The notes: generated by a model not told the origin, from the sequence alone. A stretch of 32,000 nucleotides of DNA from Candidatus Hermodarchaeota archaeon (GCA_048886185.1 JBHLKY010000008.1:90001-122000), one strand, 5' to 3'. Shown: positions 20,927 to 25,558, numbered from the stretch's first letter. Numbers and translations are program-made.

Positions 20927-21003
20927 GGGCCGGTGGTCTAGCTCGGTATGACGGCTGCCTCACACGCAGCAAATCACTAGTTCAAATCTGGTCCGGCCCA
21001 CCA
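20927..21003 (+). tRNA. tRNA-Val(CAC), intron-less, CCA encoded
   Basis: Acceptor GGGCCGG/CCGGCCC-A-CCA; anticodon arm GCTGC-CT-CAC-AC-GCAGC; T-arm ACTAG-TTCAAAT-CTGGT. Confidence 0.95.
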
Positions 21004-24220: not shown

Positions 24221-24485
24221 TTAACTTCTCCAATCTGGCATAATACCTTATTTAGGGTTTAGGAATTATCTTTACATGATTTGACGAATACAATCTTTTT
24301 TCTTAATGTTATAAGACATGAAATCGTTTTTGAGATATCCACTCTTATAACGGGATTAAAATATATTAATTTTGGTCAACAATAAAATATTACTGTTTAT
24401 ATTTATTGAATCATGATGTAGGAGGAGAGGATTGTTAATAATATCAACTTGGTCAAATGAAAAAAGGATAGAAAAAACTTTTGAT

Positions 24486-24662
24486 TGCGCCTAATAGTTA
24501 GGAATCTCTGTTTCCGGGTTCGGAATGAGACCGGGTGTAACCCAGGCCCTTTGGCCGAGCAATACTCAGCTTTTCGATTTTCCCGATGGCTCGCGCACAA
24601 CAGTACAGACCGAAACGGAACCTAACTTAACTTCCGGCAGAGATTCGCAGGTTATTGGCGCA
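24486..24662 (-). ncRNA. Predicted precursor of the permuted 5S rRNA: complementary leader and trailer forming a processing stem with a BHB-like motif
   Basis: In transcript orientation, leader GAAUCUCUG (24646..24638) pairs with trailer CAGAGAUUC (24510..24502), and UGCGCC (24662..24657) pairs with GGCGCA (24491..24486). The central helix is CCGG/CCGG with AAG and AAA 3-nt bulges. A TATA-like element lies near 24712..24720 and T-tracts follow downstream. Confidence 0.75.
24512..24631 (-). rRNA. rrf: 5S rRNA gene, circularly permuted (3' half 24631..24564, ATT linker 24563..24561, 5' half 24560..24512)
   Basis: Conserved ACACCCGGUCUCAUUCCGAACCCGGAA (helix III/loop C) and GUUAAG...CUGUACUG...GCGAGC...GGGAAA (loop E/helix IV) are both present but in swapped order. 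Helix I GCUCGGC/GCUGAGU is closed by AUU. Total length 120 nt. Confidence 0.9.
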
Positions 24663-24745
24663 CAACAGATGTAGTTGCAGCTACAACCTGATAGGAGCGC
24701 ATTCAAGAGTCTTTAAATATTATCCGTTAACCTGAGATTTTTAGA

Positions 24746-25558
24746 ATGAATTGGTCAGAATGGCAGAAAAGCTACTATCAGATAATTGAGCAATTAGATT
24801 TCGATATTGAGGCTGATAAAAAAGCAAGAAATCTATTAGAGAAATATTTTATCAAGTTAAATCCAATCACAAAATATCAAATCTTCGAAAAGCTGAAAAC
24901 TACTCTTCTAGAACCTATAATAATTGCTGGAGCAGGCCCTTCTTTGAAAAGAGATTTTTCAAATCTCTTTTTAGGGTTTTATAAAAACAAAATTTTAACT
25001 AAGTTTCGGACAATAGCTGTGGATGGTGCAACAGCATTATTCAAACAAAATAAAATTATTCCATCAATAGTAGTAACTGATCTTGATGGTGATTTGACAG
25101 CGATTAGATGGGCTATCGAAAAAGGTGCTTTAACATTAATTCATGCCCATGGTGACAATCAACAACAGCTTTCTTTGTTTATTGACAAATATAATGAAAT
25201 AATTGTAAACAATAATGTATGGGGAACTACTCAGTGTAAACCAAGACATATTCTCTTTAATTTTGGAGGATTTACAGACGGTGATAGAGCAATCTTCTTA
25301 GCATTTCACTTTCAATCTCCTCTGATCTGCCTAATTGGCTTCGATTTTGGTACTCAAATCGGTGAATATAGTACTCTCAACTCTCCGATAAAGAAAGAAC
25401 GAAAGAAGAAGCTTGAAAAATTCCAAATTGCCCTTAACTTACTATCAAACTTTCAATCTCAACACCGAGGGCTTCGCTACAATATGACATATCAAGGGGA
25501 AGAAATTTCAGGATTTCTAAAACTATCTATTTCTGACTTCCTCCAGAATTTAATTTAA
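24746..25558 (+). CDS. mptE: 6-hydroxymethyl-7,8-dihydropterin pyrophosphokinase MptE (DUF115)
   Basis: W..Y..I...L.FD...D..A, AGAGPSL, AVDGAT, VVTDLDG, IHAHGDN, NFGGFTDGDRA and LIGFDFG motifs. Confidence 0.88.
   Translation: MNWSEWQKSYYQIIEQLDFDIEADKKARNLLEKYFIKLNPITKYQIFEKLKTTLLEPIIIAGAGPSLKRDFSNLFLGFYKNKILTKFRTIAVDGATALFKQNKIIPSIVVTDLDGDLTAIRWAIEKGALTLIHAHGDNQQQLSLFIDKYNEIIVNNNVWGTTQCKPRHILFNFGGFTDGDRAIFLAFHFQSPLICLIGFDFGTQIGEYSTLNSPIKKERKKKLEKFQIALNLLSNFQSQHRGLRYNMTYQGEEISGFLKLSISDFLQNLI

What the first reader, a model, noticed from the sequence alone, without database searches (positions are those of the whole stretch)
24486..24662. Circularly permuted 5S rRNA gene flanked by a BHB-type splicing motif: predicted circular 5S rRNA
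Seen: on the minus strand the order is leader, 5S 3' half (GUUAAG...GCUGAGU), AUU, 5S 5' half (GCUCGGC...GAACCCGGAA), trailer. No other 5' half lies upstream and no 3' half downstream. Leader and trailer pair over 9 bp plus 6 bp. The hexamer CCGGAA occurs at both ends, giving a CCGG/CCGG 4-bp helix with 3-nt bulges AA|G and AA|A. The exon-side outer helix is weak, so the motif is relaxed BHB/BHL. Known: archaeal tRNA splicing endonuclease cuts after the second bulge nucleotide and RtcB ligates. Applying that rule excises 24631..24512 (120 nt), and ligation restores GAACCCGGAA|GUUAAG at the AA bulge of helix III, with helix I capped by a 3-nt loop. Precedents are permuted tRNA genes and the circularised permuted SRP RNA of Thermoproteus. 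I know of no permuted 5S rRNA gene but cannot search the literature. Inference: mature 5S is either a covalently closed circle or is reopened at the AUU loop.
Basis: partly seen in the sequence, partly recalled or inferred. Interest (0 to 1): 0.97.

Follow-up and report, generated by a model that had tools for sequence, protein, structure and literature searches.

The report
Permuted, ring-forming 5S rRNA gene
This Asgard archaeon (Heimdall/Hod group) encodes its only 5S ribosomal RNA back half first, between flanks shaped like a tRNA-splicing signal, and environmental RNA contains the predicted rejoined 120-nt form, which explains why 5S genes seemed to be missing from these relatives of eukaryotes.

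Summary
Window 24512-24631 (minus strand) holds the 5S 3' half, an AUU cap and the 5S 5' half.

- **Rfam:** RF00001 gives only two sub-threshold partial hits. The 96%-complete genome has no canonical 5S.
- **Fold:** across 70 permuted loci, the 5S fold read in permuted order is 97% paired, and 24 of 32 pairs show compensatory changes.
- **Flanks:** a 9-bp leader/trailer helix and a 4-bp central helix (CCGG/CCGG) covary. The distal 6-bp helix is no better than chance. The leader-side bulge is relaxed.
- **Enzymes:** the genome encodes a two-subunit splicing endonuclease and RtcB.
- **RNA:** one metatranscriptome holds a 150-nt contig that is a closed 120-nt cycle joined exactly 24512 to 24631. 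A second study has contigs that cross the same junction. The DNA runs show only the genomic order.
- **Distribution:** in 151 Asgard genomes, permuted and canonical 5S partition by family.

Most likely the transcript is cut at the splicing-type (bulge-helix-bulge, BHB) motif and ligated into a 120-nt circle that stays closed. Whether it stays closed is not shown.

I found no paper that reports this. The scan has found the same thing before on other DNA (241 notes, at least 134 genomes). The closest precedent is the permuted SRP RNA of Thermoproteus.

The parts
24711..24720 (-). TATA-like box (AUAUUUAAAG), followed by the conserved ACUCUUGAA (24710-24702). Presumed archaeal promoter of an independent 5S transcription unit; the transcript would start near 24700.
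   Evidence: Sequence. The same (A/T)TTAAAG/TATAAAG + CTCTTGA motif lies at the same distance in genus relatives L012, L019, L022, L023 and L027. Promoter function is inferred, not tested.
24632..24700 (-). Leader of the precursor, removed in the RNA form.
   Evidence: No RNA contig covers it, while DNA contigs do.
24657..24662 (-). Distal leader strand UGCGCC, which can pair with GGCGCA at 24486-24491.
   Evidence: Present in the sequence, but not better than shuffled controls. Weak part.
24638..24646 (-). Outer processing helix, leader strand GAAUCUCUG. Pairs with 24502-24510.
   Evidence: In 14 genus sequences, 91% of cells are paired and 5 of 9 pairs show compensatory changes; slid controls give 47% or less. 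It is in the MFE fold of the precursor.
24634..24637 (-). Central 4-bp helix of the BHB-like motif, leader strand CCGG. Pairs with CCGG at 24514-24517.
   Evidence: 89% paired in the genus; the last pair is A.C in 6 of 14; across lineages a 4-bp leader/exon helix is always present, with different sequences (CUGG/CCAG, CGUG/CACG, CAGG/CCUG, CGGA/UCCG, CAAG/CUUG).
24631..24633 (-). Leader-side bulge A-A|G. The predicted 5' cut lies between 24632 and 24631.
   Evidence: Sequence; RNA joint at 24631. The position is ambiguous within the repeated hexamer (the tool's 'both' = 6). G24631 could instead pair with C24518 (relaxed motif).
24564..24631 (-). 5S rRNA 3' half: 3' strands of helices III (lower part) and II, helices V/IV with loops E and D, and the 3' strand of helix I.
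24561..24563 (-). AUU triloop that caps helix I (GCUGAGU 24570-24564 paired with GCUCGGC 24560-24554) and joins the native 3' and 5' ends.
   Evidence: Helix I is 99.6% paired in 70 loci, with 3 compensatory pairs. Cap loops elsewhere are mostly UNCG tetraloops. RNA contigs read through the cap.
24512..24560 (-). 5S rRNA 5' half: 5' strand of helix I, loop A, 5' strand of helix II, helix III and loop C. Ends in ...CCCGGAA.
   Evidence: Rfam hit to model positions 27-51.
24511..24513 (-). Trailer-side 3-nt bulge A-A|A. The predicted 3' cut lies between 24512 and 24511.
   Evidence: Sequence; RNA joint at 24512.
24502..24510 (-). Outer processing helix, trailer strand CAGAGAUUC.
24486..24491 (-). 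Distal trailer strand GGCGCA.
   Evidence: not significant.
24460..24477 (-). Two T6 runs (24477-24472 and 24465-24460). Presumed archaeal oligo-T terminators.
   Evidence: Sequence. T-runs lie at the same place in all genus relatives. Function is inferred.

Best explanation
This is the only 5S rRNA gene of a Heimdallarchaeia/Hodarchaeales-type Asgard archaeon, and it is circularly permuted at the DNA level. It has its own promoter. The transcript is leader, 3' half, AUU cap, 5' half, trailer. Leader and trailer pair over a 9-bp outer helix. The leader's CCGG pairs with the CCGG at the 3' end of the 5S, which makes a relaxed bulge-helix-bulge motif. The two-subunit splicing endonuclease cuts after the second bulge nucleotide on each strand (AA|G and AA|A), and RtcB joins the ends of the excised piece. 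This restores ...CCCGGAA-GUUAAG... at the AA bulge of helix III and gives a 120-nt RNA with a complete 5S fold. Helix I, normally open, is closed by the encoded triloop, so the RNA is a covalently closed circle. Shown here: the permutation, its conservation, the covariation of fold and flanks, the presence of the enzymes, and the ligated junction in RNA. Inferred: that EndA and RtcB are the enzymes that act, and that the circle, not a re-opened form, is what sits in the ribosome (I put that last step at about 0.55).
For: Gene order and partial Rfam hits. No canonical 5S in the 96%-complete genome, and a single hit of the permuted model at 138.8 bits. The reordered sequence aligns end to end (115-116 of 117 nt, 57-68% identity) with canonical Asgard 5S, while the native order aligns only over 70 nt. 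RNAalifold on the reordered alignment gives the canonical three-arm 5S. In permuted order, 97.3% of cells are paired, 24 of 32 pairs show compensatory changes and 0 of 500 shuffles reach this; slid controls give 45% or less. The flank helices covary. The catalytic and His-less EndA paralogues and RtcB are present. RNA run X19 has a 150-nt contig that is a 120-nt cycle plus 30 nt of overlap, with the joint 24631->24512 'goes back 120'. RNA run X20, from another study, has two contigs whose 13-nt loose end GTTCGGAATGAGA is exactly the sequence across the junction. DNA runs X1 and X5 show only the genomic order. Canonical 5S hits in two relatives lie beside bacterial 23S on contigs of about 2.3-2.6 kb, so they are contaminants. 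Wu et al. 2022 could not predict 5S genes in closed Heimdallarchaeum genomes (PMC8813620).
Against: The leader-side half of the motif is not canonical: either a 2-nt bulge with a 3-bp GUU/AAC helix, or a 3-nt bulge followed by a mismatch. In 6 of 14 genus members the fourth central pair is A.C. The central helix competes with 5S helix III for the same CCGG, and the unconstrained MFE fold does not contain it. The RNA evidence is assembled contigs at depth about 8, from close relatives (about 97% identity), not raw reads of this strain. De Bruijn contigs can join k-mers from different molecules, so they do not prove that single molecules are closed. No enzyme assay has been done and there are no ribosome data.
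Confidence: 0.8

Rival explanations
1. The circle is only a processing intermediate. After ligation the RNA is re-opened, at the AUU cap or elsewhere, and the ribosome holds a linear 5S. This is the classical pathway for archaeal 16S and 23S.
For: [quoted passage not shown] Nothing here measures the state of the RNA in ribosomes. The AUU triloop closed by U.G in this genus is not a specially stable cap.
Against: In most other lineages the cap is a UNCG-type tetraloop, which suggests selection for a retained structural cap. No second processing motif is visible at the cap. The closest precedent, the Thermoproteus SRP RNA, stays circular (PMC4731332), and circular 23S persists in ribosomes of several lineages (PMC12918454, abstract).
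Confidence: 0.2
2. The 5S works as an unligated, permuted linear RNA. Leader and trailer are trimmed and the nick in helix III is held together by base pairing and proteins, as in the permuted mitochondrial 5S of brown algae. Junction-containing RNA would be a minor by-product.
For: Permuted 5S that stays permuted in the final RNA exists in brown algal mitochondria (PMC4267664). Heterogeneous circular forms of canonical 5S, thought to be linked to degradation, are seen in Halobacterium and Sulfolobus (PMC12558985).
Against: The junction seen in RNA is precise and is the one predicted by the BHB rule, in two studies. The flanks carry a conserved, covarying splicing-type motif in every lineage, which a simple trimming pathway would not need. 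The break lies inside helix III next to a 2-bp segment, a poor place for a stable nick.
Confidence: 0.07
3. The locus is a misassembly, a rearranged pseudogene, or a relic beside an unassembled canonical 5S.
For: The genome is a 75-contig draft, and rRNA genes are often missing from such bins.
Against: The same arrangement is found in closed chromosomes (CP070665, CP070760, CP084166, CP084167) and in all 28 class members sampled. DNA contigs of an independent study (X5) span it. Compensatory changes throughout show purifying selection on the fold. No canonical 5S was found in any of about 20 families that carry the permuted form.
Confidence: 0.01

Closest known systems
Permuted SRP RNA gene of Thermoproteus tenax / T. 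uzoniensis (Plagens et al. 2015, eLife, PMC4731332)
   Same: An essential structured non-coding RNA is encoded with its halves swapped. [quoted passage not shown] The ends are ligated into a functional circular RNA. The canonical gene had been reported as missing.
   Different: Here the RNA is a ribosomal RNA. The trait is not confined to one genus: it spans most sampled Asgard families. Circularity and protein binding were shown experimentally for the SRP RNA; here there are only metatranscriptome contigs.
Circularly permuted tRNA genes of Cyanidioschyzon merolae (Soma et al. 2007, as cited in PMC4267664)
   Same: The 3' half is encoded upstream of the 5' half. A BHB-type motif flanks the gene, and expression goes through a circular RNA made by the splicing machinery.
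   Different: The tRNA circle is an intermediate that is re-opened at the acceptor ends by RNase P and tRNase Z. No such re-opening signal is seen at the 5S cap. The host is a eukaryote.
Circular pre-16S/pre-23S intermediates, circular 23S in ribosomes (PMC12918454) and the circularly permuted 23S of Pyrococcus (PMC7758197)
   Same: A BHB in a leader/trailer processing stem, EndA cleavage, ligation of the excised rRNA into a circle, and in some lineages retention of the circle in ribosomes.
   Different: Those genes are collinear with the canonical rRNA, and ligation joins the native ends. Here the gene itself is permuted: ligation restores an internal helix III junction, and the native ends are joined in the DNA. 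PMC12918454 says that this circularisation pathway applies to archaeal 16S and 23S 'but not 5S rRNAs'.
Permuted mitochondrial 5S rRNA of brown algae (Valach et al. 2014, PMC4267664; mtPerm-5S model)
   Same: A 5S rRNA in which helix I is a closed hairpin and the termini lie elsewhere in the molecule.
   Different: In the algae the termini sit at the three-way junction, the final RNA stays permuted and linear, and there is no BHB and no ligation. Here the break is in helix III and RNA shows the rejoined junction.
Circular forms of canonical 5S rRNA in Halobacterium and Sulfolobus (PMC12558985; Danan et al. 2012 as cited there)
   Same: 5S-derived circular RNAs in archaea.
   Different: Those arise from collinear genes, have heterogeneous junctions and are interpreted as linked to degradation. 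Here the junction is single, precise, encoded by a conserved motif and needed to rebuild the 5S.

Membership tests
5S rRNA (Rfam RF00001) | Score at or above the gathering threshold (38 bits) on the collinear sequence | tested here: not met
   20.8 and 17.9 bits, two partial hits. This is expected for a permuted gene. cmscan cannot be run on the reordered sequence with these tools.
5S rRNA (Rfam RF00001) | Three-arm fold (helices I-V) supported by covariation | tested here: met
   RNAalifold on the reordered alignment gives the canonical fold. 97.3% of cells are paired and 24 of 32 pairs are compensatory, against slid controls of 45% or less.
5S rRNA (Rfam RF00001) | Conserved loop motifs (loop A, loop C CCGAAC, GUUAAG, loop E GUAC...GGGAA) and end-to-end homology to canonical 5S | tested here: met
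   Invariant columns in 70 loci. The reordered sequence aligns over 115-116 of 117 nt with canonical Asgard 5S.
5S rRNA (Rfam RF00001) | Incorporated in the large ribosomal subunit | not testable with these tools
   Needs ribosome purification or cryo-EM.
Bulge-helix-bulge substrates of the archaeal splicing endonuclease | Central helix of 4 bp between the two cut sites | tested here: met
   CCGG/CCGG in the window. 89% paired in the genus. A 4-bp helix with covarying sequence is present in all lineages. 6 of 14 genus members have A.C as the fourth pair.
Bulge-helix-bulge substrates of the archaeal splicing endonuclease | Two 3-nt bulges on opposite strands, each 3' of its central-helix strand | tested here: inconclusive
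   The trailer side (AAA) is canonical. The leader side (AAG) is followed by a U.C mismatch, or becomes a 2-nt bulge if G24631 pairs with C24518. Odin-type and Heimdall f3-type loci show 3-nt bulges on both sides in a register shifted by one.
Bulge-helix-bulge substrates of the archaeal splicing endonuclease | Flanking helices on both sides | tested here: inconclusive
   The outer 9-bp helix is strong and covaries. The inner helix is only GUU/AAC (3 bp) and is made of universally conserved 5S residues, so covariation cannot test it. This is a relaxed HBh'-type motif.
Bulge-helix-bulge substrates of the archaeal splicing endonuclease | Host encodes the endonuclease and the RtcB ligase | tested here: met
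   Two EndA paralogues: 206 aa with the Y/H/K motifs, best PDB match 3p1z_B; 212 aa without the His, best PDB matches 4fz2, 5x89 and NEQ261. One RtcB of 489 aa. That heteromeric enzymes accept relaxed motifs is from established knowledge of crenarchaeal EndA and was not tested here.
Bulge-helix-bulge substrates of the archaeal splicing endonuclease | Cleavage at the bulges by EndA | not testable with these tools
   Needs an in vitro assay. The RNA junction is at the predicted place, which is indirect support.
Permuted RNA genes restored by circularisation (Thermoproteus SRP RNA type) | 3' part upstream of 5' part at one locus, with the native ends joined by a short encoded loop | tested here: met
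Permuted RNA genes restored by circularisation (Thermoproteus SRP RNA type) | Ligated junction or circular RNA detectable | tested here: met
   X19: closed 120-nt cycle contig. X20: two contigs crossing the junction. Absent from the DNA runs. Contig-level evidence only; the closure of single molecules is not shown.
Permuted mitochondrial 5S (mtPerm-5S, brown algae) | Final RNA stays permuted and linear, with termini at the three-way junction and no ligation | tested here: not met
   The break is in helix III, and RNA shows the rejoined junction. PMC4267664.

The most novel reading that the evidence does not exclude
The mature, ribosome-bound 5S rRNA of Hodarchaeales, and of most Asgard lineages, is a covalently closed 120-nt circle made by the tRNA-splicing machinery from a permuted gene. 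The trait arose once, early in Asgard evolution, and canonical collinear 5S genes survive only in a minority of families. It would be the first 5S rRNA known to work as a circle, in the archaeal group closest to eukaryotes.
Probability: 0.5. Interest if true: 0.92.

Novelty: new variant of a known kind. Interest (0 to 1): 0.87.

Why it matters
5S rRNA is a universal ribosome component, and its gene is regarded as easy to find. Even so, closed genomes of Heimdall-group Asgard archaea were published with no 5S gene (PMC8813620).

A permuted gene that becomes a 5S only after cutting and ligation explains that gap. It shows that standard annotation (Rfam, RNAmmer, and genome-quality checks that ask for a 5S gene) misses the gene in most Asgard families. 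It also adds a ribosomal RNA to the short list of essential RNAs that depend on the tRNA-splicing enzymes.

[quoted passage not shown] That bears on how the 5S RNP (uL5/uL18) is loaded, and on RNA stability.

The clean split of families into permuted and canonical forms also gives a rare genomic character for Asgard phylogeny. The model R1 built here finds the gene at over 130 bits where RF00001 gives 21.

Tried and rejected
- **Rfam on the reordered sequence.** The tools take only stored sources, so this could not be run. I used instead RNAalifold on the reordered alignment, alignment to canonical Asgard 5S and a custom model.
- **Distal 6-bp leader/trailer helix.** An equally long helix occurs in about a third of shuffles, and relatives do not keep it at a fixed place. 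I do not count it as part of the motif.
- **Sigma-70 promoter and intrinsic-terminator scan.** Nothing above chance, and the scan does not apply to archaea. I rely on the conserved TATA-like box and the T-runs instead.
- **ORF 24403-24600 (65 aa) overlapping the gene.** It has no Pfam hit and lies inside a structured RNA, so I treat it as spurious.
- **Canonical 5S hits in relatives G006 and G020.** They lie next to bacterial 23S on short contigs, so they are contaminants.
- **Thermoplasmata, Elusimicrobiales and 'Bathyarchaeia' pattern hits.** The two Thermoplasmata loci are ordinary collinear 5S genes followed by a chance motif. The Elusimicrobiales hit is a chance match. The 'Bathyarchaeia' record has a Heimdall f4-type sequence.
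- **Weak R1 hits (35-40 bits) in families f17 and f15.** They overlap canonical 5S coordinates, so I did not count them as permuted genes.
- **The roughly 30-nt insertion in the 5S of relative G001 (L020).** I could not draw a convincing BHB for it by hand. Left unresolved.
- **Unconstrained MFE folding.** It recovers the outer helix and helix I but not the central BHB helix. This is expected, because the central helix competes with helix III.

Full report
**What is there**

On the minus strand of the window an intergenic region lies between a metallo-beta-lactamase-fold gene and an MptE-like gene. Read in order, it holds:
- a TATA-like box (24720-24711);
- a leader of about 70 nt;
- GUUAAG...GCUGAGU (24631-24564);
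- AUU (24563-24561);
- GCUCGGC...CCCGGAA (24560-24512);
- a trailer and two T6 runs.

At its gathering threshold, Rfam finds only a tRNA in the whole window. With permissive settings, RF00001 gives two sub-threshold pieces. One is model positions 27-51 (helix III and loop C) at 24512-24536, with 20.8 bits. The other is a 17.9-bit hit at 24561-24665 whose well-aligned part is the 3' two thirds of 5S.

The genome is 4.84 Mb in 75 contigs and 96% complete. It has no other RF00001 hit and one copy of this stretch.

**It is a real, complete 5S in permuted order**

I cut the sequence in the cap and put the 5' half first. This gives 117 nt that align end to end (115-116 positions, 57-68% identity) with canonical 5S rRNAs of other Asgard families. 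The native order aligns only over 70 nt.

I collected 70 distinct permuted loci from relatives and from a pattern scan of GTDB genomes. RNAalifold on the reordered alignment returns the textbook fold: helix I, loop A, helices II/III and helices V/IV.

I mapped that fold back onto the native column order and counted pairs:
- 97.3% of 2237 cells form standard pairs.
- 24 of 32 pairs carry compensatory changes.
- None of 500 shuffles reaches the covariation score.
- Sliding the partners by 1-3 columns drops pairing to 31-45%.

The covarying pairs include helix II, whose two strands come from the two swapped halves, and helix I, which is closed by the encoded cap.

**Who carries it**

Record titles name the carriers as Heimdallarchaeota or 'Hodarchaeota' MAGs. 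They include the closed chromosomes CP070665, CP070760, CP084166 and CP084167, plus Odinarchaeia, Atabeyarchaeia and others.

A covariance model of the permuted form (R1) scores 138.8 bits on this locus, which is the only hit in the genome.

I sampled 151 genomes of the phylum:
- R1 hits all 28 members of the window's class and most other families.
- RF00001 passes its threshold only in six families: f11 25/26, f17 17/19, f20 3/5, and f15, f27 and f28.
- The weak R1 hits in f17 and f15 overlap canonical genes, so I do not count them.

The two forms therefore divide the phylum by family.

Two 'canonical' hits in near relatives lie next to bacterial 23S on short contigs and are contaminants.

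Wu et al. [quoted passage not shown] Those same chromosomes carry two permuted copies each.

**The flanks**

In the window, leader GAAUCUCUG (24646-24638) pairs with trailer CAGAGAUUC (24510-24502). In 14 genus sequences this helix is 91% paired, and 5 of its 9 pairs change on both sides.

Next to it, leader CCGG (24637-24634) can pair with the last CCGG of the 5S (24517-24514). That leaves AAA (24513-24511) bulged on the trailer strand and AA(G) (24633-24631) on the leader strand. On each strand the order is outer helix, central helix strand, bulge. This is the topology of a bulge-helix-bulge motif, and the rule 'cut after the second bulge nucleotide' excises 24631..24512.

Across lineages the leader always offers four bases that pair with the exon's 3' end, with different sequences: CUGG/CCAG, CGUG/CACG, CAGG/CCUG, CGGG/CCUG, CGGA/UCCG and CAAG/CUUG. 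There are two registers, and both give the same ligated product.

There are weak points:
- In this genus the leader-side bulge is followed by a mismatch. Alternatively it is a 2-nt bulge with a 3-bp GUU/AAC helix.
- Six of 14 genus members have A.C as the fourth central pair.
- The central helix competes with helix III for the same CCGG, so the precursor must fold differently from the product. The unconstrained MFE shows the outer helix and helix I but not the central helix.

**Enzymes**

The same contig encodes two splicing-endonuclease paralogues, each with the N- and C-terminal EndA domains.
- The first keeps the Tyr/His/Lys motifs and is closest to crenarchaeal chains such as 3p1z_B and 2cv8.
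- The second lacks the His and is closest to the ARMAN-type enzyme (4fz2), to 5x89 and to NEQ261, the second chain of the Nanoarchaeum two-chain EndA entry 3iey.

A heteromeric enzyme of this kind is the type known to accept relaxed motifs. That statement comes from established knowledge of crenarchaeal EndA and was not tested here. One RtcB ligase is present.

**RNA evidence**

One search found four DNA runs that may be the source of the assembly, other DNA holders, and two metatranscriptomes from different studies. I laid two DNA runs and the two RNA runs on 24380-24780.

- **RNA run X19.** A 150-nt contig maps as 24556->24512 and then 24631->24527 on the minus strand. The tool reports it as a joint from 24631 to 24512, 'goes back 120'. 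The length 150 equals 120 plus 30, which is what a closed cycle in a k=31 graph prints as. The path runs through both the junction and the AUU cap, and it holds no leader or trailer.
- **RNA run X20.** Two contigs match up to 24637, the end of the shared hexamer. They then continue with GTTCGGAATGAGA, which is exactly plus-strand 24518-24530. This is the same junction.
- **DNA runs X1 and X5.** Both tile or span the genomic arrangement and show no such joint.

The limits of this evidence are clear. These are contigs at depth about 8, from close relatives (a few mismatches), not raw reads of this strain. A de Bruijn path does not prove that single molecules are closed.

**Circle or re-opened?**

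Three observations favour a lasting circle:
- The RNA contigs read through the cap.
- Outside this genus the cap is usually a UNCG-type tetraloop: UGCG, UUCG, UACG or CUCG in about two thirds of the 70 loci. That looks like a structural cap under selection.

No second processing signal is visible at the cap. The nearest precedent, the permuted SRP RNA of Thermoproteus, is a functional circle (PMC4731332), and circular 23S is reported inside ribosomes of several archaeal phyla (abstract).

Against this, the classical 16S/23S pathway re-opens its circles, and nothing here measures ribosome-bound RNA. I put the lasting circle at about 0.5-0.55.

**Known or new?**

Full-text searches for permuted or circular 5S, with and without Asgard or Heimdall terms, found no report of a permuted archaeal 5S gene. 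What they did find:
- Permuted mitochondrial 5S in brown algae. It is permuted in the final RNA and involves no ligation (PMC4267664).
- Heterogeneous circles of canonical 5S in Halobacterium and Sulfolobus, read as degradation products (PMC12558985).
- A 2026 paper stating that circularisation applies to archaeal 16S and 23S 'but not 5S rRNAs' (PMC12918454).

The library is incomplete, so this is 'not found', not 'never published'.

Within this scan the same feature has been reported many times on other DNA: 241 notes in at least 134 genomes. I treated those notes as leads and re-tested the claims here.

**Verdict**

The mechanism matches that of the Thermoproteus SRP RNA and of permuted tRNAs, applied to a ribosomal RNA and fixed across most of a phylum. 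I class it as a new variant of a known kind, of high interest.

Noticed in passing
L020:1608-1690 (G001, same genus): The permuted 5S of this relative carries an extra 30 nt or so between CAUUCCGAA and CCCGGAA in loop C/helix III. The insert repeats UCAUUCCG and holds a 5-6 bp hairpin. R1 still scores 115 bits over 181 nt. It may be an intron or an expansion; I could not draw a clean BHB for it.
   Followed up: partly
L032:1378-1793 (G020, another family of the same order): Two permuted 5S genes in tandem, each with its own pairing leader and trailer (CCCCA/UGGGG and GUCACACCU/AGGUGUGAC).
   Followed up: partly
L006, L024, L033 and other Heimdall f3-type loci (leader, about 45 to 8 nt upstream of GUUAAG): These leaders hold an extra 8-9 bp hairpin between the outer helix and the central helix. 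The processing motif there is a three-way junction, not a continuous strand, and its cut-site register is shifted by one nucleotide relative to the window.
   Followed up: partly
G000:C8:47026-47280 and G000:C8:79836-80096 (same contig, outside the window): Two splicing-endonuclease paralogues, one with the catalytic Tyr/His/Lys motifs and one lacking the His. This implies a heteromeric (crenarchaeal/nanoarchaeal-type) enzyme in this Asgard archaeon.
   Followed up: partly
Phylum survey: Permuted and canonical 5S genes partition Asgard families almost without overlap. Canonical genes are found only in six of about 27 sampled families. This could serve as a rare genomic character for Asgard phylogeny.
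   Followed up: partly
window 24403-24600 (-): A 65-aa ORF overlaps the 5S gene and trailer. It has no Pfam hit and is almost certainly a spurious call that could hide the RNA gene in annotations.
   Followed up: yes
window 20927-21000 (+): An ordinary 74-nt tRNA (60.2 bits, no intron) lies 3.5 kb from the 5S gene. It is the only Rfam hit above threshold in the window.
   Followed up: no
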